DNA of 64,000 bases from a virus (IMGVR_UViG_3300045988_130413), one strand, 5' to 3'; counted from the stretch's first letter, positions 41,526 through 63,249 are shown. Notes: generated by a model not told the origin, from the sequence alone. Translations and numbers: made by a program.

Positions 41526-41555
41526 GAAGTTCCATTCCTTAAGAATGGAACTTCA
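41526..41555 (-). terminator. perfect 12-bp hairpin overlapping RNA ligase stop codon
   Basis: GAAGTTCCATTC-CTTAAG-GAATGGAACTTC. Confidence 0.5.
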
Positions 41556-42729
41556 GTAGAAATTCATTGGAAACCGCTTTAAAGGACTGAACACCATCCT
41601 GAGAACGGAATACAAGACCTTCACGCATCTTTCCATCTACTACAGAATCACCGGTCGCAATAGCAAGAAGTTCATCAACTGTATCTGGAAGGATAAAGTT
41701 TTCATCCACAATCGGCACCCACGGAATACCATACTCCATCATTAATTTGCTTGCCCGCTTAGAATCCCAACGACCTTCCGCAGAAGTGATGAAGTTAAAT
41801 CCCATAAAGTTATGCTCTTTCAGAGAGTATTCTCTCTTCTGGATACCCTGACCATAAGTTTCACCTTGAAGTGTTACCCATTCAAGGTCTGGACGATTTC
41901 TGAGAATCTCCTGGAGAGTTGCTTCAACATTGTATTTTTCAGCCATTTCAACGTAAACGTTGGTATCATAAAAACAAGACTTATCTGGCTTATCAAATAC
42001 TACGTTACGAGAGCAGATATAAAACTCAAATTTTTCTTTCTTCAAGAAACGAGTTTTAGTTCTTTTCATTGTAAAGGTAGTAGAAGTACCATCAATTTTT
42101 TCAGTTGCAACCCATGGATTTTTATTCTCAAGAATCCAAGGCATGTTCTGTACACGCTCTTCATCTGTTTTAGAAACCCATGCCGGCCATCCGGTCTTCT
42201 TATCAGAAGTTTTACCAAAGAACAAGAATAAGATTTTCTTACCCCAAGTTCTACGCATTAACCATCTAAAAGGCTGATGAGAAAACAATTTTCCATGTCT
42301 CTGAGCCATCTTTTTGTACTTATCTACAGAAGATGCTTTACGAGCATTATCTTCTTCAACTGCATAAGTTACTTTTAATTTCTGAGTTAAAAAGTCACCA
42401 AGTTTATAAGCATCTTTCTCCCAACCGAAGTCCTCAAAGCCCATCAACAGACCCTGAGAAATTACAGTACCTTTAAAATATTTCTGAGTCTTAATTTTAA
42501 AATGCTTCGGCTCAAGAAACATAAATGGCTCTTCTGCTGGAACTTTAGAATCAATCTCAAAGTAAACAGCTAAATCACCTGGCTTAAACTGGTCTTTACG
42601 AACCATAATATGCCAACCATTTACGATAGCTACTTCTACTCTGTCAGCTCCTTCAATAGGACGAATCTCGTCAACTTTGACAACATAAGCAAGCTCTCTT
42701 TCTTTCTTTTCATTCAGCATACCTATCAA
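41539..42729 (-). CDS. ATP-dependent RNA ligase (Rnl-family nucleotidyltransferase with N-terminal OB-like domain)
   Basis: Motif I VATEKIDGTS (KxDG), motif IV/V EGLVFR; consensus promoter upstream. Confidence 0.65.
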   Translation of the reverse strand: MIGMLNEKKERELAYVVKVDEIRPIEGADRVEVAIVNGWHIMVRKDQFKPGDLAVYFEIDSKVPAEEPFMFLEPKHFKIKTQKYFKGTVISQGLLMGFEDFGWEKDAYKLGDFLTQKLKVTYAVEEDNARKASSVDKYKKMAQRHGKLFSHQPFRWLMRRTWGKKILFLFFGKTSDKKTGWPAWVSKTDEERVQNMPWILENKNPWVATEKIDGTSTTFTMKRTKTRFLKKEKFEFYICSRNVVFDKPDKSCFYDTNVYVEMAEKYNVEATLQEILRNRPDLEWVTLQGETYGQGIQKREYSLKEHNFMGFNFITSAEGRWDSKRASKLMMEYGIPWVPIVDENFILPDTVDELLAIATGDSVVDGKMREGLVFRSQDGVQSFKAVSNEFLLKFHS

Positions 42730-42752
42730 TCTCCTTTATTTATTGTAAATAT

Positions 42753-42781
42753 ATTATATAAAATTTTTAAAAGTAAATCAA
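42753..42781 (-). promoter_or_regulatory. consensus phage promoter upstream of RNA ligase
   Basis: TTGATT-17-TATAAT. Confidence 0.5.
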
Positions 42782-43353
42782 TTAAGGTCTGTTTCTTTCA
42801 AACAATCGTGGTAAATTTTAATAAGGGTTTTTTTATTTAGAAATGCCTTATTTCCAATGCCATTTTGCTCTCTCCACGCTAAACGATATAATACTTTATC
42901 TATAAACATTTTAGTCGCAGGGTGCATTGCAATAGGATTTTTAGTTTTATTCTGCCACCATTTATATTCTCCTTGATATGTAAAAGTATTTCCCATATAA
43001 GCATGTCCCGCACCTAAATAATCACAAAGTAATTCCAAAAGATATTTGTCTGGCATTGGGAGTGCAGTGCCACCTTTATCGAAATTATCCTGCCAGTACT
43101 CGTAGTGGTGTCGATTCCGACCTTTATGATGCTGCCAAGCTAAAGACATTCCATTTTCTTCTTTACAAGCATCTATTGGAGAGCGAGTCCCCTGCCAATA
43201 TTTGACACCTTCCCAAAATTCAACAGGAGAAAATTTAGATAAATCGTGTGTAATTCCCTGCTTATAAAGACCAATTTTAAAGCAGTATTTTCCTACCCAA
43301 TATTTATGTTTACATACAGTTTTTAAATGTCCAAAAAAGTTTTTAATTTTCAT
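42778..43353 (-). CDS. hypothetical protein
   Basis: 191-aa ORF. Confidence 0.4.
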   Translation of the reverse strand: MKIKNFFGHLKTVCKHKYWVGKYCFKIGLYKQGITHDLSKFSPVEFWEGVKYWQGTRSPIDACKEENGMSLAWQHHKGRNRHHYEYWQDNFDKGGTALPMPDKYLLELLCDYLGAGHAYMGNTFTYQGEYKWWQNKTKNPIAMHPATKMFIDKVLYRLAWREQNGIGNKAFLNKKTLIKIYHDCLKETDLN

Positions 43354-43372
43354 ATTTTATTCCTCTAAATAT

Positions 43373-43762
43373 TCATACTCTATTTAAATATTCATACTCT
43401 ATTTTATGCAAAGAATCATCTTTTTTATAATAAACATAAGTACATTTTACCTGTATCTCATCTCCTTCTTTAATGGTATTAAAGATAGAAGAAGAAACGT
43501 CTACTTTTTCATTATTTACGCCATATAAATAATATGAATGAGTTGTAACAGGAATAAGAACCTTCCCGCTCATTACAACAGAATGATGTACATCATCCTC
43601 TTTATTTATAACTTCAACTGTTCTTACTTCAGTTTTTAAATAAAATTGGTCATAATACTTCTTTATCCCAGCTATAATTCCAATACAAGCTGCGACAATA
43701 AGCACCACAACTACAATGTGCTTCATAATTTCTTTTAATCTTTGTTTTTTCCAATAGTTCAT
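43373..43762 (-). CDS. membrane protein
   Basis: N-terminal TM HIVVVVLIVAACIGIIAGI. Confidence 0.35.
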   Translation of the reverse strand: MNYWKKQRLKEIMKHIVVVVLIVAACIGIIAGIKKYYDQFYLKTEVRTVEVINKEDDVHHSVVMSGKVLIPVTTHSYYLYGVNNEKVDVSSSIFNTIKEGDEIQVKCTYVYYKKDDSLHKIEYEYLNRV

Positions 43763-44091
43763 TATTCAACTCTCCAACCGGCTTCCTTACAAACTCTTTT
43801 CATATTCTGAACTCCAACAGGATTCATACTATGAAATTTAAAAGTCGCATAAATATGCCAGCCCCGCAGTCTTTGGCAACATTCAAGCCAGTCAAGAATT
43901 TTAATATAGTCTCCGCCTTTCTCATAATATTCACCGGCATCATGATCTAAATTAATTTCATTAACTTCAAGAATGTCTCCTTCTGGTCTGACAAGAGTAA
44001 TAAGACACATTTCTGCGTCCCAAACACTCTTAATCCAAATATAAGATTCATCTGGTGCGGGCCGCATATCATCAATCCAAAGTTTAATCAT
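43762..44091 (-). CDS. hypothetical protein
   Basis: 109-aa ORF. Confidence 0.35.
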   Translation of the reverse strand: MIKLWIDDMRPAPDESYIWIKSVWDAEMCLITLVRPEGDILEVNEINLDHDAGEYYEKGGDYIKILDWLECCQRLRGWHIYATFKFHSMNPVGVQNMKRVCKEAGWRVE

Positions 44092-44092
44092 A

Positions 44093-44911
44093 TTATTTCA
44101 CCTCAAATTTCCAATAATAGAAGTTATACTGTTTCTTTGTATTGTAGGATTTTTTAATCCTTTTGGCTACATTGTTTACATTTACAGTTGGATTGTTTCT
44201 CATACTCTTATCATATGATTTAACATATTCAACTGCTTCTTTAAGATTCTCAAATTTCTTAGTTCTTTCTTCTTCAAAATTTTTAGTAGGGCAACAGAAA
44301 ACATCAAAACGAGTATCTTCATATTCGATTTGGTCAGTTGTAATTTCCTTATACTCCATAAAGACATTTGCATCTACTTCAGAAGCTTTCTCATTTTTAC
44401 AGCCTTCATAAACCTCTTTTAACATCTTCGCATCATCAAGAGAATTATGGGTCTGAACAATCTCTTCTCCTCTAAAATATTCGCAAACTTTAGCAAGATT
44501 AATCAGCTTAATTAAGCCAAAATGAACTTTGACGGCAGGAGCAAAATCCTTCATATCTGTATTCATATAGCCAAGAATTGCTTTTGCCTTAAAGCTATTT
44601 GTTTTGCGGAAGGTCGCTTTGATAAAATCTGTATCACAATTCCCATAACAATAAAACTCAGGAATATCATCGCCGCAATCTTCAAAGCAAAAATCAAAAA
44701 ACTTATTGAATACTTCTTCTGGAGAAGGAGCTGCCTCAACCATTTCTGTAGTAATACCTGTTAAATCAGTGATAAACTTAGAAACATTCTTCTTTGTATT
44801 CTCTGGAGTATGTACAAGAGAATAAAATTCTTTTCCATCTTCTCGAACACATCCAATAGAAATAATGTAATTGGAAAACTGCATTGCTTCAAAGTCAATA
44901 AAATATTTCAT
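44093..44911 (-). CDS. DEDDh 3'-5' exonuclease (DnaQ/RNase T-like)
   Basis: Exo I FIDFEA, Exo III HNSLDDAKML. Confidence 0.6.
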   Translation of the reverse strand: MKYFIDFEAMQFSNYIISIGCVREDGKEFYSLVHTPENTKKNVSKFITDLTGITTEMVEAAPSPEEVFNKFFDFCFEDCGDDIPEFYCYGNCDTDFIKATFRKTNSFKAKAILGYMNTDMKDFAPAVKVHFGLIKLINLAKVCEYFRGEEIVQTHNSLDDAKMLKEVYEGCKNEKASEVDANVFMEYKEITTDQIEYEDTRFDVFCCPTKNFEEERTKKFENLKEAVEYVKSYDKSMRNNPTVNVNNVAKRIKKSYNTKKQYNFYYWKFEVK

Positions 44912-44929
44912 AATGTATCAATCCTCTCT

Positions 44930-45112
44930 TTAGTCAAGTCTTACTTTTTTAGTATAAAGTTTCTTTTCAACGATGCTTCCGCATTCTGGACATCTAAAAT
45001 AAGAAAAAATAGAATTTCGACATTCATCTTGTGACGCAATAAATACACAATGACATTTTGAACATTTTAACCGATAACCATATTTTTCGCCAGATTTAAA
45101 AATTTTAATCAT
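44930..45112 (-). CDS. zinc-ribbon protein
   Basis: CSKCHC...CPECG. Confidence 0.35.
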   Translation of the reverse strand: MIKIFKSGEKYGYRLKCSKCHCVFIASQDECRNSIFSYFRCPECGSIVEKKLYTKKVRLD

Positions 45113-45145
45113 TTCTTTTTATCCTTTCCTTAACTTTCTATATAT

Positions 45146-45174
45146 ATTATATTATAATTTTAATAAAAAATCAA
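45146..45174 (-). promoter_or_regulatory. consensus phage promoter
   Basis: TTGATT-17-TATAAT. Confidence 0.5.
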
Positions 45175-45186
45175 TAAAGGAAAAAC

Positions 45187-45975
45187 TTATTCAGTTTTTC
45201 CTTTATCAAAATTAGGAGATTTTCTAAAATAAGCAGGAAGTAAATAATTTGGGTCGTTCCATCTTTTCCATATCTCGTCTAAGTCTTCGATTACTTTAAA
45301 ATATTGTTCAACGTGCGGGCGCTCTATTCTGTCTGCATGAAAGTGACCAAAAAGCCAAACATTCCAATTAATCTTATCTTTAAAAGAATCAAACCAAACT
45401 TCCATAGAATCATCTACAGTGGACTGGTCAATCATAGATAAAAACAAATCAGTTGGTTCCCAACTTAATGGACAAGTATGAGTAAAGACAAAATCAAAAT
45501 TTTGTCCTGCATACATCGCTTCAATAGTCTGCATTTCTGCTTCTGTTAACTGCTCATTTGGATACCAAGTATAATGATTTTCAAGTCTATACCACTTATC
45601 CACAGAATAAGCTCCACCTATTACAAGCGTATTATGACCAAGAAAATCATAATTAGAGCCATCCATGAGATAATGGATATGAGGATAACCGGGTTCAATG
45701 AAAACATAATTCGCAACATCATCATCCCAAACCTCTTCAATACCTTTAACATCTTCTGGACGAGCTTCATGATTCCCCCTTACTAAATAAAATGTGCATC
45801 CATATTGTTCAAGTTGCATCTTAATATCATGTCGCCTTGCCGCACTCTTGTAAAAATTAACCCCTGCATCTCCTAAGATAATAATACCAGTCTCTTTTGG
45901 ATTTTGTATTTCAAGCCATTCAAAACGATCCATACAGCCATGAGTATCTCCTGTTACAAAAAACTGTTTAATCAT
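45187..45975 (-). CDS. calcineurin-like metallophosphoesterase
   Basis: GDTHG, GDAG, GNHE, GHFH motifs. Confidence 0.65.
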   Translation of the reverse strand: MIKQFFVTGDTHGCMDRFEWLEIQNPKETGIIILGDAGVNFYKSAARRHDIKMQLEQYGCTFYLVRGNHEARPEDVKGIEEVWDDDVANYVFIEPGYPHIHYLMDGSNYDFLGHNTLVIGGAYSVDKWYRLENHYTWYPNEQLTEAEMQTIEAMYAGQNFDFVFTHTCPLSWEPTDLFLSMIDQSTVDDSMEVWFDSFKDKINWNVWLFGHFHADRIERPHVEQYFKVIEDLDEIWKRWNDPNYLLPAYFRKSPNFDKGKTE

Positions 45976-46793
45976 TCCCTTTCCTCCAACTCAAAAGCAA
46001 TACTTTTCTTCATAATTTCTGCTTGAACTTCTTGAAGAAGATTTTCAGCTTCTTCATCAGTATAGTTAAATTCAGAATCTTTTGTATATGGGGCACAAAT
46101 TTTATCAATATGAGCCATATGTTCATCTGCAACTTTAATAGCTTTTTCTTTTGGATAAAGACCAGTTTTAATGTCTTTTAAATATTGCGGGTTAGCTGGA
46201 CATAAACATTCTTTATATGGTGCTCCAGCGATATATTTATCGAGGTATTCATCAATTCTTACAAGCTGATAAAGCTGTTTTGGGTCATAGTTAAACTTTT
46301 CAAAAGCTTCTTTATGTGCTTCAGTCTCTTTAATAAGAGCATATCTTTTTCCAAGAGCAATACCAGACATAGCCTTTACTGCGAAATAAGGATTATAATG
46401 TGCAATAACTTCATTTTCCGCAATTAATTTATTCCATTCTTTTTCATACATTGGATTGATGATTTTATAATTAGTGAAAAGAATCTCAATAAAATTTAGA
46501 TTCTGTTTGCGGAAAGTATCAAACATAAGTCTAATATCTTTAAAGTCAATATGCTCTCCATTAGCCCTAAAATGAGTTGTAGACATAGGCTTACGATTAT
46601 AAATAAAATCATTTAATGTTGGAGTGGTAATAAGTTTTGTATCAATATCAGAATCTTCAGTCTCAAGACCGTAATTCTGACTACCTTGCAGAAAAATACC
46701 TACAATATTATTTTTAGCAAAGTATTGTTTAGATTCAAGATAATGCTCTTGAATACCACTCGCAGTTTTAATTATTGTATTAAGGTCTGCCAT
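45972..46793 (-). CDS. Pol-beta superfamily nucleotidyltransferase
   Basis: GIFLQGSQNYGLETEDSDIDT (GS...DxD). Confidence 0.55.
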   Translation of the reverse strand: MADLNTIIKTASGIQEHYLESKQYFAKNNIVGIFLQGSQNYGLETEDSDIDTKLITTPTLNDFIYNRKPMSTTHFRANGEHIDFKDIRLMFDTFRKQNLNFIEILFTNYKIINPMYEKEWNKLIAENEVIAHYNPYFAVKAMSGIALGKRYALIKETEAHKEAFEKFNYDPKQLYQLVRIDEYLDKYIAGAPYKECLCPANPQYLKDIKTGLYPKEKAIKVADEHMAHIDKICAPYTKDSEFNYTDEEAENLLQEVQAEIMKKSIAFELEERE

Positions 46794-46825
46794 ACTTTCT
46801 CACCTTCCTTTAACTTTCTATATAT

Positions 46826-46854
46826 ATTATAATAAATTTTTAATAAAAAATCAA
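46826..46854 (-). promoter_or_regulatory. consensus phage promoter
   Basis: TTGATT-17-TATAAT. Confidence 0.5.
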
Positions 46855-46883
46855 AAAGGGAGAAAATATTTAAACTTTCTCCC

Positions 46884-47240
46884 TTAATCATCGGTTGCCC
46901 ATTGTCCCTTTTTAATCAATCTTACAAGTTCATAATCATGCTGGGTTGGTTCAACATAAAATTTATATTTCGCAGAAGCATACTCAGGAATGTCAAAATG
47001 ATGATTTGCGTTCCATACATAATCTAAACAATCAATAACAGCTTGTTGTTTATCTTTATCAGTTCCATTTGTGTTTGCAGAAATATAAGCTAAGATTTCT
47101 TCTTCTTCGCTTCCCCAATCATAAGATGGAAAAATTTGCATCTTTTCCGCAGGTTTATGTCGAAAAGACATACCTAAAGATGTAAATAATACACATAAAA
47201 GAATAATTAAAAACATTTTTTCTTTCCAGTTAAAATTCAT
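46884..47240 (-). CDS. secreted/lipoprotein-like hypothetical protein
   Basis: Signal-peptide-like MFLIILLCVLFTSLG. Confidence 0.35.
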   Translation of the reverse strand: MNFNWKEKMFLIILLCVLFTSLGMSFRHKPAEKMQIFPSYDWGSEEEEILAYISANTNGTDKDKQQAVIDCLDYVWNANHHFDIPEYASAKYKFYVEPTQHDYELVRLIKKGQWATDD

Positions 47241-47254
47241 ACATGAATCCTTTC

Positions 47255-47683
47255 TTATAAGAAATAATGTAATACAGGAATATATTTATCCCGCAATTTT
47301 TCAGTAAGCGTATCAGTTAAAGTCATATGGTCTTTCATATCTGCCTGTTTAACGATAAAAGCATAATCATCTTTTGCGTCAATAATTTTATGAATATAAT
47401 CTTCATATTTTTCTTGAGGGTCTTTTGTTAAAAGAACTAATGAATTATAACTCTCTATTCCCAGAATAGACATTAAATCTTCTTTTGGACATTCAGTGTC
47501 TTCTAACAAATCGTGCGCCAAAGCAATCATATAAGCTTTTGTTATATCCATTTTTAAAAGGTCAGCTTTTGCGGTCGCATATTCAGCAACCCGCAAAGCA
47601 TGAGCTAATTTTTTCTTAGGATAATATTGAGCTGCTAAAGTGAATAATTTATTCATTTTTGTAATATCATAATTATAACCCAT
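47255..47683 (-). CDS. HD-domain phosphohydrolase (YfbR-like 5'-deoxynucleotidase family, DatZ-like)
   Basis: HALRVA...ALAHDLLEDT (H..HD..D). Confidence 0.6.
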   Translation of the reverse strand: MGYNYDITKMNKLFTLAAQYYPKKKLAHALRVAEYATAKADLLKMDITKAYMIALAHDLLEDTECPKEDLMSILGIESYNSLVLLTKDPQEKYEDYIHKIIDAKDDYAFIVKQADMKDHMTLTDTLTEKLRDKYIPVLHYFL

Positions 47684-47991
47684 TAATGTCCCTCCTCACA
47701 AATACCTAAAGAAATTTCTCCTGTATATCCGCAATAATACATGGAAAGTTTCTTAGAGCCTTTTTTAGAAAAATAATACCAGGTATCCTGTTCCCAGCCA
47801 TTAGTATCCCAGTCATCATCTCTATCATAACCAAGTTTATCAAAAACATCCATAAACTGACATGGACCAAGGTTTAAAAGGCTAAGTTCAATATTTGTAG
47901 CATTACCAACTTCAAGCTCATGAATTACACCTCTTATAAAAGGCATTACTTTATCAATATCTTCCTCAGAAATGCTATATCCTCTTATCAT
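47683..47991 (-). CDS. hypothetical protein
   Basis: 102-aa ORF. Confidence 0.35.
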   Translation of the reverse strand: MIRGYSISEEDIDKVMPFIRGVIHELEVGNATNIELSLLNLGPCQFMDVFDKLGYDRDDDWDTNGWEQDTWYYFSKKGSKKLSMYYCGYTGEISLGICEEGH

Positions 47992-48856
47992 TTATTCTTC
48001 TCCTATATAAATTAAATCATCAACGTATTTGCGGTCTTCGCCTTTTAAAATAGGCATATTTTTATCAATAGCCCAGATAGGTCTTTCTTCAATAATTGTA
48101 GTTGTAACTCTATCTTCTCCAAAAGGCTGAGGTTCTCTTTTTATATTTTCAGTTACTTTTGTTGCAACTTTAATACATGCAGTTCCTCGTTTACATGGTA
48201 TTGTAAAGTCATTCCAGTTAATGCCATATTTGGTCATTAACATATCTTGAATCATATTACAAGTTTTATCTTGAAGTTCATCATGTGAAAAATGAGCTTG
48301 TCCAACCATTTGAATACTATTTCTTGTTGCATCAAGTTGCCGCCAATAAATGAGGTTAGTTACCTCTTCTTTTGGAATGTTAAAACATCTGGCATCAAAC
48401 ATTGCCCCTTTTTCTACTGCACTTATATAATTGTCAAGTAAGCCTTCTCTTCTCTTTACAAGGGGGTCATGAGTTAAATTATATTCAACTACATTTTCAG
48501 AAAAATATTTGTTAAAAGCCATTGTTGCCATAGAAGCTGATACAGAGGTTAATTTTTGAACCTCATAATCAAACCAAGCATCTGAAGTGAATTTTTGATA
48601 ATCTACTAAAATCAGAGTAATTTCATCTGATTGTGTATATCCAAAAACGCAACCTTGAATATTTTCACATAGATATTTCATTGTTTGTTGCATTGTATCC
48701 ATTAGCACAAAGTCAAATGGTTTTTGAAAACCTCTTGTAAAAGTATGAAACGCCTTGCCGTCAAAGACGTATCGCTACTGGTGTTCTTCTCATAAGAACA
48801 GTTTTACTAACTTTTTCATAATTTTTCATTCTGTTAGCTAAATCACTTCTATCCAT
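47992..48856 (-). CDS. Thg1-like 3'-5' nucleotidyltransferase (tRNA-His guanylyltransferase family); needs +1 frameshift at CUU UGA C (~48763-48769)
   Basis: N-terminal frame MDRSDLANRMKNYEKVSKTVLMRRTPVAIRL then stop; +1 frame continues DGKAFHTF...FVLMDTMQQTMKYL...VFGYTQSDEITLIL...YWRQLDATRN, matching Thg1 VVVRLDGRNFHRF...IAYGQSDEYSFVF...SWRQ. Confidence 0.65.
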
Positions 48857-49151
48857 GCGATGTATACCATTCTTTTAAAGTTTTTATACACTTATCATAA
48901 TAATCATATTCGCTTTTTCTTATTTTTCCCTTATGCCATAAAATTTGATATGGCTTTAAATGTCCATAAGCCCAAAAATCATAAGTATATTCGCCATCAT
49001 GCCACATTAAATGTGGACAAAATACTTCATTTAATCTTGCGGGAATGTATTTTATCTTTACTTTTATAGGATGCTTAATCTTAGCTTTAATAGCTTCGAT
49101 TAAGCAATTACTATAAAAATATTCAGAGATATATGTCATAATTTTGGACAC
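48849..49151 (-). CDS. hypothetical protein
   Basis: 100-aa ORF, stop overlaps Thg1-like start (ATGGATAG). Confidence 0.35.
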   Translation of the reverse strand: MSKIMTYISEYFYSNCLIEAIKAKIKHPIKVKIKYIPARLNEVFCPHLMWHDGEYTYDFWAYGHLKPYQILWHKGKIRKSEYDYYDKCIKTLKEWYTSHG

Positions 49152-49345
49152 CAGCCTGGAATATCAGTATATCTTCTTAAATGCCAATCATCACCTGCAA
49201 CCAATTTGTCATGTCCTTTTACATCTTTAACGAGTTTACAATAACATCCTTCCTCATGGTCCCAAGAATCTGGAGTATAAATAGGACGAACATCATGATC
49301 TGGACAATCAAGGCAATTTGTAATTGTAATAGTAAAAGAATTCAT
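49136..49345 (-). CDS. hypothetical Cys-rich protein
   Basis: 69-aa ORF. Confidence 0.3.
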   Translation of the reverse strand: MNSFTITITNCLDCPDHDVRPIYTPDSWDHEEGCYCKLVKDVKGHDKLVAGDDWHLRRYTDIPGWCPKL

Positions 49346-57817: not shown

Positions 57818-58906
57818 ATGATTTATTTAGATAATAATGCGACAACTAAGCCTTTTCCAGAAGTAATTAAAATATTTGAAGAATCTTCTTTTGCTAATCC
57901 ACATTCAACCCATTCTGCAGGTTTATTAGCAGATAAAGAGCTACAGTCCGCAAAAGAAAGTATTGCAAAAGATATTGATTGCGAACCAGACGAAATATAT
58001 TTTGTAGGAAGTCCAACAGAAGCCTGTAATTGGGCAATTCAAATTTTACGAGATAAAGAATGTAAAATAAATTATCATAAATATGAACATAGCGCAGTAT
58101 TAAAACCTATTTTAGCTTTTCCAGAAGTAGAGAATCCTAAACGAAATGGATATGTACAAATGCTTGTAAATAATATTTATGGAGAAATTTATAATATCCC
58201 CATAAGAGAACATGAAGATGATATTATTTTTTGTGATGGTACTGCGGCGATTGGGCATATTCCTTTTAGTTTTAAAGAATCTGGTATTGATATGCTTGCT
58301 TTTGGAGCACATAAATTCAATGGATTAAGAGGAATCGCTTGTTTAATAATTAAAAAAGATTTACTTCCAGTCCGTTCATTATTATGGGGTGGAGATATAA
58401 CTGGCGGCACTCCTTGCCAAGGTCTTGCATCTGCAATGGCATATGCTTTACATAAAAATATTGAGCATATGAGCGAAAATACAAAAAAGACTAAAGAAAT
58501 GCAAGATTATATTATTAATGAACTAACTACAATTCCATTTTCACGAATTAATGGACCGATAGGAAATAATAGAATTTCTAATAATGTAAATATTAGTTTT
58601 TCATATATATCTGGTTCAGATTTACAAAAGTATCTTAGTGATTATAATATTTGTGTTTCTACTGGAAGCGCTTGTGATTCAAGCAGTTTTGTTGAGTCCA
58701 GAGGTGGTATTTGTGTGCGGCCATTGAAAAAAGATAATCGAAGAGAACCTGAATTGGTTACAATATTTAAAGCCGGTGGAATGGATGAAGATGATGCAAA
58801 AAGTTCAATTAGAATTACCTTAGATGCAAATTATAATACTATGGAAGAAATTGAAGAGTTTATTAACACCCTTAAAAATATTATTAAATTAAATAGACCT
58901 ATATAA
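57818..58906 (+). CDS. NifS/IscS-like cysteine desulfurase (class V aminotransferase)
   Basis: LDNNATT, FANPHSTHSAG, PLP-lysine region AFGAHKFNGLRGIACLII; only plus-strand gene. Confidence 0.7.
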   Translation: MIYLDNNATTKPFPEVIKIFEESSFANPHSTHSAGLLADKELQSAKESIAKDIDCEPDEIYFVGSPTEACNWAIQILRDKECKINYHKYEHSAVLKPILAFPEVENPKRNGYVQMLVNNIYGEIYNIPIREHEDDIIFCDGTAAIGHIPFSFKESGIDMLAFGAHKFNGLRGIACLIIKKDLLPVRSLLWGGDITGGTPCQGLASAMAYALHKNIEHMSENTKKTKEMQDYIINELTTIPFSRINGPIGNNRISNNVNISFSYISGSDLQKYLSDYNICVSTGSACDSSSFVESRGGICVRPLKKDNRREPELVTIFKAGGMDEDDAKSSIRITLDANYNTMEEIEEFINTLKNIIKLNRPI

Positions 58907-60339: not shown

Positions 60340-60762
60340 TTATGCCTTATCCAAGATTTGAACTTGGTATTTATAAGTTTGAAATCCTTGATTATTTATT
60401 GTAGGAGCATTTCGTAAAGCTATTCTATTACGATTACCAGCTTTAAGAATATCTTTTACTGGAATACACCACATGTCTAAATTTTTATTTACACAAAATA
60501 AAAAATCAAGCTCAGAATGATTTATAATATTATCATAGACGGCTCCTTTTGTCCCTCCTGTATTTCTCAAACTAATTTCTCCACTTTCAGTTTGAGTAGC
60601 TTTACATTGTACAGTTTTTAAAACACCGTCTTTTTCAATTATCAAATCATACCACTGAGTGTCATTTAATGGAAGAGAAACTGTATATCCTTGACAAGTA
60701 AAATAATTTATTGCCATACTTAATCCAATTCTTCCAATTTGTTTTCTATTAATTTCATTCAC
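60340..60762 (-). CDS. Hjc-like PD-(D/E)xK nuclease encoded inside interrupted tRNA gene (paralogue 2)
   Basis: GTG start with AGGAG RBS; GYTVSLPLNDTQWYDLIIE...LKTVQCK aligns with 54605..55027 product. Confidence 0.5.
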   Translation of the reverse strand: MNEINRKQIGRIGLSMAINYFTCQGYTVSLPLNDTQWYDLIIEKDGVLKTVQCKATQTESGEISLRNTGGTKGAVYDNIINHSELDFLFCVNKNLDMWCIPVKDILKAGNRNRIALRNAPTINNQGFQTYKYQVQILDKA

Positions 60763-61380: not shown

Positions 61381-61800
61381 TATTTATAAGCTACTCTTGT
61401 AGAAATAGTGTGATTAAAAATAGCCAGATACTAAAATATTCTTTCTTAGCAGGAAAGCGCCCTATATGAGCAATATAATTGCTGTATGTATCTGTTTATT
61501 CACTTCATTAAAAGATGACGCTTTTAATGAAATTAGCTTTCGATACCATCTCTGTCAAGCCCTTAGCTTATAAGGACAGTGAAGTGTAAGCCCCTCACCA
61601 GAATCTCATGCTTCCCATTGATTTACAAGGCTATAGCACAAAGCAACCTTGGGAGACTCTCATAGGTCATCTATGGCTGAGCATCTTCCTTAACTCAGAC
61701 TTTAAAATATTAAACCGTGCTACTTATTCCTAAACTATTTCGTAGCTATCTCCATCAGCATCATTTCAGATACTATACACATAAGATTTTGTGATTTAAT
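61381..61800 (-). ncRNA. ORF-free structured region upstream of tRNA-Gln (candidate ncRNA/leader)
   Basis: ~420 nt, no ORF on either strand, moderate GC. Confidence 0.25.
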
Positions 61801-61806
61801 ATTAAA

Positions 61807-61878
61807 CTGGGGTAGCTGGATTCGAACCAGCGAATACGGCAGTCAAAGTGCCGGGCCTTACCGCTTGGCGATACCCCA
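61807..61878 (-). tRNA. tRNA-Gln (anticodon UUG)
   Basis: TGGGGTATCGCCAAGCGGTAAGGC...CGGCA-CTTTGAC-TGCCG...GCTGGTTCGAATCCAGC-TACCCCA; near-identical framework to E. coli tRNA-Gln. Confidence 0.85.
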
Positions 61879-61883
61879 TCATT

Positions 61884-61950
61884 TCAAGACACATTTTGAA
61901 TTATTGCCTAACCACTTGGCTATTTATGCACCCTGAGCATAAAACTGGAT
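61884..61950 (-). ncRNA. rearranged/possibly permuted tRNA-like element
   Basis: 17-nt exact copy of the tRNA-Gln T-arm (CTGGATTCGAACCAGCG), then TTTATGC, 7-nt spacer, complementary GCATAAA, then U8-A9 and D-arm GCC-AAGTGGTTA-GGC. Confidence 0.3.
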
Positions 61951-62302
61951 TCGAACCAGCGTTAATAATTTGCTATAAGCAAAATTTGCTGTGTGTGTCT
62001 TAAAAGATATTTCTTAAATTTTTAAAAGAGAGGTTTTTAATTAACAAGACTCGTAAAGTTCTAATAGTAATCCTATCAATAATCCCTATTTACTTCAACT
62101 CAAATTATTGGTCATCGGCTGGAGCCGGACTACCGGCGTTCTTGTTATCCTTTTAATTACATTAAAAGAAATTTGCTGATCCGAGTCTATTATATTTTTA
62201 ATAATCGGGTGGATTTGCACTCGCCTTACCTCTGTAACCTACAGAACCCTTGGAAGATAAACTTCCTTAGCACCTTGCAATTATTATTTACTTTATATAT
62301 TT

Positions 62303-62331
62303 ATTATATCATTTATTTTATAAAAAATCAA
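62303..62331 (-). promoter_or_regulatory. consensus phage promoter driving ~320-nt untranslated leader and tRNA array
   Basis: TTGATT-17-TATAAT. Confidence 0.45.
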
Positions 62332-63027: not shown

Positions 63028-63249
63028 TTTTAATTCTCAAGACGAAATCCTCCCGTGAGGACAAGATACAATCAGGAGTCGAACCTGAAGGTTTTTAGTA
63101 TATGCAGTATATTCTTTTGAATTAAATAATATTGCAGACTTCGTCTTTTAGTTAATAAAGTCTTTTCTTTCTTTACCGCCACCTCATTCTTTAGACGGAA
63201 GAAATTTCAAAACTGATTGGAAAGAGTACCTTTATTAACTTATATATTT

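What the first reader, a model, noticed from the sequence alone, without database searches (positions are those of the whole stretch)
61884..61950. Permuted or recombined tRNA-like element upstream of tRNA-Gln
There is an exact 17-nt copy of the tRNA-Gln T-arm, followed by the acceptor 3' strand UUUAUGC and a 7-nt spacer. Then comes the perfectly complementary acceptor 5' strand GCAUAAA, U8-A9, a D-arm GCC-AAGUGGUUA-GGC and a hairpin UUCAA-loop-UUGAA. A 3'-half-then-5'-half order is the signature of circularly permuted tRNA genes, otherwise known from algae and archaea. It could equally be an att-like duplication or recombination scar.
Basis: seen in the sequence. Interest (0 to 1): 0.5.

Follow-up and report, generated by a model that had tools for sequence, protein, structure and literature searches.

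The report
Phage tRNA-mimic Y-like small RNA
The "back-to-front tRNA" is real, but it is not a scrambled tRNA gene: it belongs to a conserved, apparently uncatalogued family of small phage RNAs that copy the shape of a tRNA with its acceptor end sealed shut, and that travel with a phage relative of the Ro60 RNA-binding protein, much like bacterial Y RNAs.

Summary
The sequence features are present, on the minus strand, but the element is larger than reported (about 62003..61883) and ends 4 nt before tRNA-Gln. The order T arm, acceptor 3' strand, 7-nt loop, acceptor 5' strand, U8-A9, D arm is conserved in at least 46 related phage loci. Covariation is strong: 96% of cells paired and 26 of 29 pairs with compensatory changes. 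The tRNA tertiary signatures are kept (U8, A14, GG, and a 15:48 pair that switches G:C to A:U). Its 3' half pairs instead with AAGACACA 110 nt upstream, forming a terminal helix followed by an invariant ACAGCAA motif. This is the architecture of YrlA, the tRNA-mimicking bacterial Y RNA. However, Rfam's YrlA model does not match, the YrlA GNCGAA motif is absent, and the associated protein is a DUF2828/vWA protein with a Ro60-like predicted fold, not a TROVE-family Ro60. The stem plus ACAGCAA module recurs in six other RNAs in this window. It also lies next to DUF2828 genes in phages of Mycobacterium, Staphylococcus, Listeria, Bacillus, Escherichia and Fusobacterium. Verdict: a new variant of a known kind. 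It is not a permuted tRNA gene and not an att scar.

The parts
61994..62001 (-). 5' strand of the terminal (closing) helix, AAGACACA. Weaker U-A and U-G pairs can extend it to 62005.
   Evidence: It pairs with 61893..61886 in the MFE fold. Across 39 distinct relatives, helix 1 is 94% paired and 7 of 9 pairs show compensatory changes.
61985..61992 (-). Invariant single-stranded motif ACAGCAAA. This is the proposed recognition site for the Ro60-like protein.
   Evidence: It is conserved in nearly all 133 family hits. It is also conserved in phages of Actinobacteria, Firmicutes, Proteobacteria and Fusobacteria, while the flanking helix changes sequence.
61969..61983 (-). V hairpin, UUUGC-UUAUA-GCAAA
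   Evidence: Helix 2 is 97.7% paired and 5 of 5 pairs show compensatory changes. It corresponds to the 'V' stem-loop of YrlA.
61964..61970 (-). 3' strand of an anticodon-stem-like helix, AAUUAUU. It is followed by the variable-loop analogue ending in C48 (61961).
   Evidence: It is complementary to 61905..61899. Family-wide, this position shows a mean of 3.7 contiguous pairs against 2.2 in shuffles (0 of 2000 shuffles as high). C48 can pair with G15, and the 15:48 pair covaries G:C (25) to A:U (33).
61944..61960 (-). T arm, GCUGG-UUCGAAU-CCAGU
   Evidence: Helix 3 is 99% paired and 4 of 5 pairs are compensatory. G51 changes to A in close relatives and still pairs with U.
61923..61943 (-). Closed acceptor-like hairpin (AS): UUUAUGC, loop UCAGGGU, GCAUAAA
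   Evidence: Helix 4 has 7 bp, is 95.6% paired, and 7 of 7 pairs are compensatory. The loop is 0-16 nt long in relatives.
61906..61922 (-). U8-A9 and the D arm GCC-AAGUGGUUA-GGC
   Evidence: U8 61/61, A14 61/61 and GG in the D loop 61/61. All 3 pairs of helix 5 are compensatory.
61899..61905 (-). 5' strand of the anticodon-stem-like helix, AAUAAUU
   Evidence: It is the counterpart of the 4-bp helix that encloses the T-AS-D junction in the Rfam YrlA consensus (alignment).
61885..61893 (-). 3' strand of the terminal helix, UGUGUCUU, plus the conserved G
   Evidence: The ...GUCUUG ending is conserved. tRNA-Gln begins 6 nt after the G.
61807..61878 (-). tRNA-Gln(UUG). RNase P processing of its 5' end would define the 3' end of the element.
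   Evidence: 60 bits. In at least 25 distinct relatives the next tRNA gene starts 2-9 nt after the end of the model match.
51841..53364 (-). Ro60-like protein gene (DUF2828 + DUF7788/vWA, 507 aa), the presumed protein partner
   Evidence: Pfam; phrog_850 'RNA-binding protein'; 36% identity over the full length to mycobacteriophage 'Ro-like RNA binding protein'. The top 9 Foldseek PDB hits of the AF2 model are all Ro60.
53418..53562 (-). Paralogous RNA with the same stem + ACAGCUAA module and degenerate T/AS/D arms, 54 nt upstream of the Ro60-like gene
   Evidence: R2 gives 35 bits; sequence. The same position is occupied in L001-L005, L013, L018, L026, L028-L033 and others.
55739..55842 (-). 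Paralogous RNA: the same module with a T arm only
   Evidence: R2 gives 36 bits; sequence.
62043..62191 (-). Paralogous RNA just upstream (AGACUCG...CGAGUCUUG with CAGCAAA) carrying different inner hairpins
   Evidence: R2 gives 28.9 bits; sequence. A promoter-like TTGATT-17-TATAAT with an extended -10 TG lies at 62331..62303 on the minus strand.

Best explanation
The element is a roughly 120-nt non-coding RNA that mimics tRNA and works like a YrlA-type Y RNA.

Shown:
- It folds into T arm, D arm, a 7-bp acceptor-like stem sealed by a 7-nt loop, a short anticodon-stem-like helix and a V hairpin.
- All of these are enclosed by a terminal helix made from the two ends of the RNA, next to an invariant ACAGCAA motif.

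Inferred:
- It is transcribed with the phage tRNA array on the minus strand.
- It is released by the tRNA-processing machinery. RNase P cutting at tRNA-Gln +1 would leave its 3' end a few nucleotides after the helix.
- The terminal helix plus ACAGCAA is the handle bound by the phage's Ro60-like DUF2828/vWA ring protein.
- The tRNA-shaped module is the effector end. It would present a non-chargeable tRNA look-alike to tRNA-binding enzymes.

Speculative:
- Given the surrounding genes (Thg1-like, nucleotidyltransferase, phosphoesterase, RNase T, RNA ligase), the RNP most likely recruits or gates tRNA repair and quality-control enzymes, or decoys host tRNA-targeting defences, during infection.
For: Structure:
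- MFE -33.4 kcal/mol, z = -3.4.
- 44 (later 133) covariance-model hits. 96% of cells are paired, 26 of 29 pairs have compensatory changes, and slid controls give 31-49%.
- U8, A14 and GG are invariant, and the Levitt pair switches G15:C48 to A15:U48. Chen et al. described the same hallmark for YrlA.
- The order V-T-AS-D matches YrlA.
- Once circularised and reopened at the AS loop, the frame is called a tRNA by ARAGORN.

Link to the protein:
- 130 of 130 hits in the fetched loci are on the gene's strand.
- 59 of 80 DUF2828 loci have a hit, and most misses have little upstream sequence.
- Tandem stem + ACAGCAA RNAs sit directly beside the gene in Faith1, BE02, a Listeria phage, Tsamsa and a Fusobacterium phage, including phages with no tRNA array there.
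- In a blind IMG/VR scan for the motif, 18 of 32 matches with the helix lie in a locus that encodes DUF2828, against 0 of 48 matches without it (Fisher p = 1.3e-9).

Nature of the protein:
- The top 9 Foldseek PDB hits are Ro60 structures, led by 2NVO at E = 6e-8.
- SEA-PHAGES annotates homologues as 'Ro-like'.
- Gp130 of the Felixounavirus Bas63, which sits directly upstream of that phage's tRNA stretch, was reported as Ro60-like and as a counter to the Ppl defence. The authors guessed that nearby 'tRNAs' might be Y RNAs.

Context:
- An RNA-repair gene island lies downstream.
- RtcB-like and other ligases sit next to the homologue in Listeria phage.
Against: - There are no expression, end-mapping or binding data.
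- Rfam's YrlA model (RF02553) finds nothing here at E <= 10, although it does detect the canonical YrlA of phage McGee.
- The YrlA GNCGAA motif is absent.
- The protein is not a Pfam TROVE protein. Its AF2 model is only moderate (pLDDT 73, TM about 0.45 to Ro60).
- In this window the element lies 8.5 kb from the protein gene, beyond the 4-kb criterion of Chen et al., although a paralogue is adjacent.
- Co-location with tRNA arrays confounds the strand and position statistics.
- The V hairpin and the anticodon-like stem partly compete in many members.
Confidence: 0.72

Rival explanations
1. A genuine permuted or split tRNA. RNase P cuts 5' of GCAUAAA in the AS loop, the upstream piece is trimmed and receives CCA, and the two pieces, held together by the terminal helix, act as an aminoacylatable tRNA or tRNA-like acceptor.
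For: - The acceptor stem is 7 bp. Chen et al. name this as the determinant that lets M. smegmatis YrlA be cut by RNase P and receive CCA.
- 18 of 61 relatives encode N-CCA right after the acceptor 3' strand.
- Ten relatives have a covarying anticodon arm with canonical CU-NNN-AA loops.
- The re-permuted sequence is accepted as a tRNA frame by ARAGORN.
Against: - The window element has no anticodon arm and no CCA (loop UCAGGGU).
- No circularising or splicing machinery of the archaeal or eukaryal type is known in bacteria or phages (established knowledge).
- The invariant ACAGCAA module would be pointless in a tRNA.
- The family includes members with a T arm only, or with no tRNA part at all.
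Confidence: 0.06
2. Evolutionary debris: a decayed tandem tRNA duplicate, or an att-like or recombination scar next to tRNA-Gln.
For: - A 17-nt identity with the tRNA-Gln T arm, and a similar D arm.
- Location in a tRNA array interspersed with PD-(D/E)XK endonuclease ORFs.
Against: - The element is conserved with compensatory changes in every helix across loci whose marker protein is only 55-65% identical.
- The two acceptor strands stay complementary in 7 of 7 pairs, which tandem tRNAs would not require.
- The 17-nt identity is not conserved even in relatives whose Ro60-like protein is 96-98% identical.
Confidence: 0.02
3. A tRNA-shaped RNA that acts independently of the Ro60-like protein. 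It could be a processing spacer or chaperone for the tRNA polycistron, or a free decoy that soaks up host tRNA-targeting nucleases or tRNA-modifying enzymes.
For: - It abuts tRNA genes on one or both sides in many loci, with 0-9 nt gaps.
- tRNA-rich phages are the main carriers.
- Some relatives display anticodon loops.
Against: - The stem + ACAGCAA module also occurs beside the DUF2828 gene where there is no tRNA array (Faith1 and BE02).
- It is statistically tied to that gene.
- A pure spacer would not need invariant tertiary-interaction nucleotides.
Confidence: 0.15

Closest known systems
YrlA (Rfam RF02553), the tRNA-mimicking bacterial and phage Y RNAs bound by Ro60/Rsr (Chen et al. 2014, PMC4201824)
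   Same: - Order V, T arm, closed acceptor-like stem-loop, D arm.
- RNA ends paired outside the tRNA-like core.
- Conserved U8, A14, GG and T loop, and G15:C48 to A15:U48 covariation.
- Encoded on the same strand as a Ro60-type ring + vWA protein, often in several copies (YrlA/YrlB).
- RNA-repair genes nearby.
   Different: - RF02553 does not match.
- My family model matches a canonical YrlA (McGee) only over the tRNA-like core, not the handle.
- The protein-binding motif is ACAGCAA after a 9-12 bp helix, not GNCGAA(N)G.
- The partner protein is Pfam DUF2828 + DUF7788, not TROVE + vWA_Ro60.
- The RNAs are embedded in phage tRNA arrays and flanked by tRNA genes.
M. smegmatis YrlA (7-bp acceptor stem, cleaved by RNase P, CCA added)
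   Same: A 7-bp acceptor-like stem. Many relatives even encode N-CCA in the loop.
   Different: Cleavage and CCA addition are untested here. The window copy has UCAG, not NCCA.
Circularly permuted tRNA genes (Cyanidioschyzon merolae, some green algae, Thermofilum; from my own knowledge)
   Same: The 3' half (T arm + acceptor 3' strand) precedes the 5' half (acceptor 5' strand + D arm), with a short intervening sequence between the acceptor strands.
   Different: - No anticodon arm in this element.
- No bulge-helix-bulge at the paired termini.
- The host and virus are bacterial-type.
- The terminal helix and ACAGCAA motif are conserved as if they belong to the mature RNA, not to discarded leader or trailer.
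Thermus phage phiLo phiRo60 with Yrl1/Yrl2 (PMC12135203)
   Same: A phage-encoded Ro60-type protein with two or more small RNAs encoded next to it, proposed to hijack host RNA enzymes.
   Different: The phiLo RNAs are stem-bulge-stem Y RNAs with a CGAA motif. phiRo60 (PDB 9KOP) shows no sequence match to the window protein, even at E <= 10.
Two-piece (permuted) tmRNA genes
   Same: Permuted order of the tRNA-like domain halves.
   Different: ARAGORN finds no tmRNA here. There is no G3:U70, no tag reading frame and no pseudoknots.

Membership tests
YrlA / bacterial Y RNA (RF02553) | tRNA-like core in the order V, T arm, closed acceptor-like stem-loop, D arm, with the RNA ends outside it | tested here: met
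   architecture as described.
YrlA / bacterial Y RNA (RF02553) | tRNA tertiary-interaction nucleotides, including covarying 15:48 | tested here: met
   U8 61/61, A14 61/61, GG 61/61; 15:48 is A:U in 33, G:C in 25 and A:C in 3.
YrlA / bacterial Y RNA (RF02553) | Match to the curated covariance model | tested here: not met
   No RF02553 hit at E <= 10 in the window or at E <= 0.1 in Faith1, JH2 or Tsamsa. The model does detect McGee YrlA at 36 bits.
YrlA / bacterial Y RNA (RF02553) | GNCGAA(N0-1)G motif near the 5' end (presumed Ro60 contact) | tested here: not met
   The 5' region reads AAGACACACACAGCAAA. The family consensus is AAAGACNCAUACAGCAAA.
YrlA / bacterial Y RNA (RF02553) | Encoded within 4 kb of, and on the same strand as, a TROVE-domain Ro60 | tested here: inconclusive
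   The strand is the same, but the element lies 8.5 kb from the gene. A paralogue lies 54 nt from it. The protein is DUF2828, not Pfam TROVE, yet has a Ro60-like predicted fold.
YrlA / bacterial Y RNA (RF02553) | Bound by Ro60/Rsr in vivo; modified by TruB and DusA | not testable with these tools
   Needs RIP/EMSA and modification mapping.
Circularly permuted tRNA gene | 3' half upstream of 5' half with complementary acceptor strands | tested here: met
   7 of 7 acceptor pairs.
Circularly permuted tRNA gene | A complete anticodon stem-loop is reconstituted when the termini are joined | tested here: not met
   A 5-7 bp stem exists, but it encloses a module of about 60 nt (terminal helix, ACAGCAAA, V hairpin), not a 7-nt loop. 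ARAGORN needs a 55-nt 'intron' to call it.
Circularly permuted tRNA gene | Bulge-helix-bulge motif at the paired leader and trailer, for the splicing endonuclease | tested here: not met
   The terminal helix is a continuous 8-12 bp duplex with no 3-nt bulges.
Circularly permuted tRNA gene | Circular intermediate and a mature, chargeable tRNA | not testable with these tools
   Needs circular RT-PCR and acid-gel Northern analysis.
Ro60 (TROVE + vWA) protein family, for the partner protein | HEAT-repeat ring plus C-terminal vWA/MIDAS domain | tested here: inconclusive
   The top 9 Foldseek hits are Ro60, aligned over the full length (E = 6e-8 to 3e-4). However, TM is 0.31-0.45 and model pLDDT is 73. 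Pfam TROVE is not matched and phmmer against PDB is empty.

The most novel reading that the evidence does not exclude
The family may be more than a passive mimic. Members with a 7-bp acceptor stem would be cut by RNase P in the sealed loop and matured to a CCA end, which 18 of 61 already encode. This would give two-piece tRNA-like molecules held together by the terminal helix on a Ro60-like ring. The relatives that keep a full anticodon arm (GAU, UAA, UCU) would then be natural split or permuted tRNAs of phages that can be charged or can decode. Alternatively they would be bait built to trigger or absorb anticodon nucleases.
Probability: 0.1. Interest if true: 0.85.

Novelty: new variant of a known kind. 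Interest (0 to 1): 0.62.

Why it matters
Homologues of the DUF2828 'Ro-like' protein occur in 704 records of the phage collection searched. Carriers include Felixounavirus, KVP40-like, Listeria P100-like, Enterococcus, Campylobacter, cluster L mycobacteriophages and Tsamsa-like Bacillus phages. I found no RNA partner described for them.

One homologue-like protein, Bas63 gp130, was reported to counter the Ppl defence system. Its authors only guessed that nearby 'tRNAs' might be Y RNAs.

The family defined here supplies concrete candidates:
- a conserved handle (helix + ACAGCAA);
- swappable inner modules (tRNA-like, T arm only, or none).

This makes the mechanism directly testable. It extends the Y RNA/Ro60 paradigm to a second protein family. 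It also flags unannotated small-RNA genes hidden in phage tRNA arrays, where a scan for a T arm followed by a D arm could take them for two adjacent tRNA genes.

Tried and rejected
- **Rfam scans.** They returned only tRNAs plus sub-threshold noise (plastid UTR models lying antisense to tRNAs, a 15-bit tmRNA fragment). There was no YrlA, group I intron or tmRNA.
- **blastn against the phage collection.** Only the tRNAs matched, so there is no close cultured relative.
- **phmmer of the protein against PDB.** No meaningful hit. A fold search was needed.
- **Permuted-tmRNA idea.** Rejected because ARAGORN finds none and there is no G3:U70.
- **Permuted group I intron-exon idea.** Rejected because only about 6 nt separate the element from tRNA-Gln, and no intron model matches.
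- **Does the element's T arm track its neighbouring tRNA?.** My extraction of tRNA T arms was out of register for many tRNAs, so I draw no conclusion from it.
- **ARAGORN's 'tRNA-Ala(AGC) with a 55-nt intron' on the re-permuted sequence.** I treat this as a forced call. It shows only that the frame is tRNA-like.
- **Supplementary tables of Chen et al. and the two Wolin-lab reviews.** None of them is held in the library, so I could not check whether any DUF2828 phage was in their list of 22 phages.
- **Promoter scan.** The total number of sites is no higher than in shuffles, so the two good minus-strand sites are only suggestive.

Full report

The features lie on the minus strand. Reading 62010 to 61879 gives the sequence below.

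...UUUUAAGACACAC-ACAGCAAA-U-UUUGCUUAUAGCAAA-UUAUUAAC-GCUGGUUCGAAUCCAGU-UUUAUGC-UCAGGGU-GCAUAAA-UA-GCCAAGUGGUUAGGC-AAUAAUUCAAAA-UGUGUCUUG-AAAUGA

This is followed at once by tRNA-Gln(UUG) at 61878..61807 (ARAGORN; Rfam tRNA, 60 bits).

The following are all present:
- the 17-nt identity with the tRNA-Gln T arm (CGCUGGUUCGAAUCCAG);
- the acceptor 3' strand;
- the 7-nt spacer;
- the perfectly complementary 5' strand;
- U8-A9;
- the D arm.

The stated coordinates (61884-61950) cut the T arm and omit the 5' third of the element.

The 17-mer is weak evidence. Eleven of its bases are the GGUUCGAAUCC core, which four of the six window tRNAs share. In three relatives whose Ro60-like protein is 96-98% identical, the first T-stem base is A, not G, and still pairs with U.

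**2. The fold**

The 132-nt stretch folds at -33.4 kcal/mol (z = -3.4; none of 200 dinucleotide shuffles is as stable). The fold has a T hairpin, a sealed acceptor hairpin, a D hairpin and a small upstream hairpin. All are enclosed by a 12-bp helix between UUUUAAGACACA and UGUGUCUUGAAA.

**3. Relatives and covariation**

The window is phage DNA with 30-39% GC. Nearly all genes are on the minus strand, and no close cultured relative was found.

ORF 53364..51841 (507 aa) is DUF2828 + DUF7788/vWA. It matches phrog_850 'RNA-binding protein'. It is 36% identical over its full length to proteins that SEA-PHAGES annotates as 'Ro-like RNA binding protein'.

Using it as a marker, I fetched 80 IMG/VR loci. 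nhmmer with the element already found full-length matches upstream of the gene in more than 20 loci whose protein is only 55-65% identical.

A covariance model built from the window copy and five near-identical ones, with a hand-set structure (R1), found 44 hits at E < 5e-4. On their alignment:
- 96% of cells are standard pairs;
- 26 of 29 pairs show changes on both sides;
- controls with the partner slid by 1-3 columns give 31-49%.

Each of the five helices covaries: terminal helix, V, T, acceptor-like (7 of 7 pairs) and D. The alignment was fitted to the model, which favours the structure. However, the raw sequences show the same compensations by eye.

A second model (R2) found 133 hits at E < 1e-3 in 1.65 Mb. 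All are on the strand of the DUF2828 gene.

**4. tRNA mimicry**

In 61 distinct members that have all arms:
- U8, A14 and a D-loop GG are invariant;
- the T loop is UUCRANU;
- the Levitt pair switches between G15:C48 (25 members, including the window) and A15:U48 (33 members).

Chen et al. used exactly this covariation to argue that YrlA RNAs fold like tRNA.

A further helix joins the nucleotides after the D arm to those 3-5 nt before the T stem. In the window this is AAUAAUU 61905..61899 with AAUUAUU 61970..61964. Its mean is 3.7 contiguous pairs against 2.2 after shuffling partners among members (0 of 2000 shuffles as high). It occupies the place of the anticodon stem. In many members it overlaps the 3' strand of the V hairpin, so the two may be alternatives. 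I leave this unresolved.

When the RNA is circularised in silico and reopened in the acceptor loop, ARAGORN accepts the frame as a tRNA, but only by invoking a 55-nt 'intron'. With an artificial 7-nt loop it is called a standard tRNA.

So the core is a tRNA frame lacking an anticodon loop and lacking a free acceptor end.

**5. What it is closest to**

The order V, T, closed acceptor stem-loop (AS), D, with the RNA ends paired outside, is the published architecture of YrlA. YrlA is the tRNA-like Y RNA bound by bacterial Ro60/Rsr, and it is also found in 22 phages (Chen et al. 2014, PMC4201824).

Rfam holds this family (RF02553). It detects the canonical YrlA about 190 nt upstream of the TROVE + vWA_Ro60 protein gp233 of mycobacteriophage McGee, at 36 bits, which is below the gathering score. 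It finds nothing in the window at E <= 10, and nothing in Faith1, JH2 or Tsamsa at E <= 0.1.

Conversely, R2 matches the McGee YrlA only over the tRNA-like core (model positions 21-94, 26.7 bits) and not over the handle.

The YrlA motif GNCGAA(N)G is absent. Instead, every member has AAAGACNCAU-ACAGCAAA at the 5' end and AUGNGUCUUG at the 3' end.

**6. The handle and the protein**

The helix + ACAGCAA module is shared by RNAs with different interiors. In the window alone I find six more copies on the minus strand:

| Coordinates | Interior |
|---|---|
| 63149..63036 | T arm |
| 62191..62043 | other hairpins |
| 61496..61422 | (none noted) |
| 55842..55739 | T arm only |
| 54368..54270 | no T arm |
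| 53562..53418 | degenerate T/AS/D; 54 nt upstream of the DUF2828 start codon |

In cultured phages the module sits in tandem directly beside the gene:
- Faith1: three copies after the stop codon, the middle one tRNA-like (60 bits), followed by a terminator.
- Staphylococcus phage BE02: three copies after the gene.
- A Listeria phage: three copies before the gene.
- Bacillus phage Tsamsa: two copies before the gene, plus a tRNA-like copy between tRNA-Glu and tRNA-Ile.
- A Fusobacterium phage: one copy between a promoter-like site and the gene.
- E. coli phage JH2 (Felixounavirus): a tRNA-like copy (55 bits) in the tRNA stretch after the gene.

The helix sequence changes between phyla (GUGGACGC/GCGUCCAG, UUAGGAAUC/GAUUCCUG), while ACAGCAA stays.

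As a test not biased by how loci were chosen, I scanned IMG/VR for AAGACNCNTACAGCAAA. Of 32 matches followed within 220 nt by the complementary strand, 18 lie in a locus with a DUF2828 homologue, although these loci are short. Of 48 matches without the helix, which are presumably chance matches, none does (Fisher p = 1.3e-9).

An AF2 model of the protein (pLDDT 73) has Ro60 structures as its top nine Foldseek PDB hits: D. radiodurans Rsr 2NVO (E = 6e-8), then Xenopus and human Ro60. All are aligned over the full length, though TM is only 0.31-0.45. Pfam sees DUF2828, not TROVE.

The protein is therefore a distinct family with a Ro60-like ring + vWA fold. The same conclusion was reached for Bas63 gp130, which was found to counter the Ppl defence. 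Its authors speculated that some neighbouring 'tRNAs' might be Y RNAs.

**7. How it most likely works**

Shown:
- the fold;
- the tRNA-like tertiary signature;
- the modular family;
- the genomic linkage to the Ro60-like gene.

Inferred:
- Transcription is with the tRNA array. A promoter-like TTGATT-17-TATAAT with TG at 62331..62303 precedes the 62191 paralogue, this element and tRNA-Gln. The scan as a whole is not enriched over shuffles.
- Release is by tRNA processing. In at least 25 distinct members the next tRNA starts 2-9 nt after the match, and several members abut the previous tRNA.
- The Ro60-like protein binds the helix + ACAGCAA handle.
- The sealed tRNA look-alike is presented to tRNA-binding enzymes.

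Speculative:
- The purpose. The genes downstream on the same strand encode a PARG/macro protein, a Thg1-like enzyme, an HD protein, a Pol-beta-type nucleotidyltransferase, a metallophosphoesterase, an RNase T-like exonuclease and an RNA ligase.
- The Listeria homologue is near RtcB-like and other ligases.
- Ro/TROVE proteins with a tRNA-like partner have been described as a platform for RNA repair.
- I therefore favour a role in tRNA repair or quality control, or in countering tRNA-directed host defences.

**8. Rivals**

A true permuted tRNA gene is unlikely for this element. It has no anticodon loop, no CCA, no bulge-helix-bulge, and a conserved handle that would serve no purpose in a tRNA.

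A scar or decayed duplicate is refuted by covariation.

A Ro-independent spacer or decoy role remains possible. It does not explain the copies beside the gene in phages without local tRNA arrays, and it does not explain the association statistics.

**9.

- Ten relatives carry, after the D arm, a 5-bp/7-nt anticodon arm. In a plain MAFFT alignment it is 100% paired, with 4 of 5 pairs compensatory and loops CU-NNN-AA (GAU, UAA, UCU). These are complete cloverleaves, permuted so that the ends lie in the variable region.
- 18 of 61 members encode N-CCA immediately after the acceptor 3' strand, where about one would be expected by chance.
- M. smegmatis YrlA, the one YrlA with a 7-bp acceptor stem, is cut by RNase P and receives CCA.

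Processing into a two-piece, CCA-ended molecule is therefore plausible for part of the family, but it is untested.

**10. Novelty**

I found no description of this RNA family, or of an RNA partner for DUF2828 proteins, in the searchable literature or in Rfam 15.

I rate it a new variant of a known kind: a YrlA-like tRNA mimic with a different handle and a different, Ro60-like, protein family. It is widespread in tRNA-rich phages.

Noticed in passing
window 63149..63036, 62191..62043, 61496..61422, 55842..55739, 54368..54270, 53562..53418 (all minus strand): Six further small RNAs share the terminal helix + (A)CAGCAA + ...CUUG module but carry different interiors: T arm only, other hairpins, or degenerate T/AS/D. 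The last one lies in the 5' leader of the Ro60-like gene and could also serve autoregulation.
   Followed up: partly
L077:1716-1844, L076:6075-6206, L075:3689-3814, L018:2308-2435, L040:1662-1794, L030:1301-1433, L044:8561-8692, L008:1255-1389, L027:3775-3906, L034:1088-1218: Relatives of the element that also carry a complete, covarying anticodon arm (anticodons GAU, UAA, UCU). They form full cloverleaves with a sealed acceptor stem and ends in the variable region. ARAGORN does not call them as tRNAs.
   Followed up: partly
for example L032:3131-3246, L029:968-1086, L018:3324-3444, L024:918-1037, L023:6339-6480: 18 of 61 distinct family members encode N-CCA (GCCA, ACCA, CCCA, UCCA) directly after the 7-nt acceptor 3' strand, inside the sealed loop. 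This is an encoded tRNA 3' end.
   Followed up: partly
window 41539..50156 (minus strand): An RNA/tRNA-repair-type gene island lies downstream of the Ro60-like gene. It contains PARG/macro (49347-50156), Thg1-like (47992-48708), HD (47255-47683), Pol-beta nucleotidyltransferase (45972-46793), metallophosphoesterase (45187-45975), RNase T-like exonuclease (44093-44911) and RNA ligase with an OB fold (41539-42729).
   Followed up: partly
window 54605..55027 and 60340..60762 (minus strand): Two PD-(D/E)XK_5 endonuclease ORFs are interspersed among the tRNA and small-RNA genes. They may be homing-endonuclease-like insertions.
   Followed up: no
window 57818..58906 (plus strand) and 55895..57013 (minus strand): A class-V aminotransferase/cysteine-desulfurase-like gene is the only sizeable plus-strand gene in the region. 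Next to it is an AAA ATPase (phrog_2376), which together with the vWA protein recalls MoxR-vWA pairs.
   Followed up: no
L044:4904, L076:14133, L008:4567, L019:7200, L047:937, L061:3250, L075:7262 (anticodon CUA); L029:1109 (anticodon UUA): Many related phages carry suppressor tRNAs (amber CUA, which ARAGORN labels 'Pyl'; one ochre UUA). This suggests stop-codon recoding in this phage group. None was found in the 64-kb window.
   Followed up: no
L075:5570-5869: A tmRNA gene (tag ARYQYQMAA*) lies inside the tRNA array of a related phage.
   Followed up: no
family-wide; window 61983..61964 against 61905..61899: In many members the 3' strand of the V hairpin can pair instead with the segment after the D arm, forming the anticodon-stem-like helix. 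Both pairings show support. This could reflect a conformational switch or an alignment ambiguity.
   Followed up: partly
L092:240-317 (Mycobacterium phage McGee): The canonical YrlA of this cluster C1 phage overlaps two annotated small 'hypothetical protein' CDSs (gp231, gp232), which are probably mis-annotations.
   Followed up: no
L089:1616-1743 (Vibrio phage KVP40): The gap between tRNA-Gln and tRNA-Thr is filled by a divergent member (GAAGAGUGUUUUCAGCAAAC ... T arm ... AACACUCAG; R2 23 bits). It is unannotated in the record.
   Followed up: no
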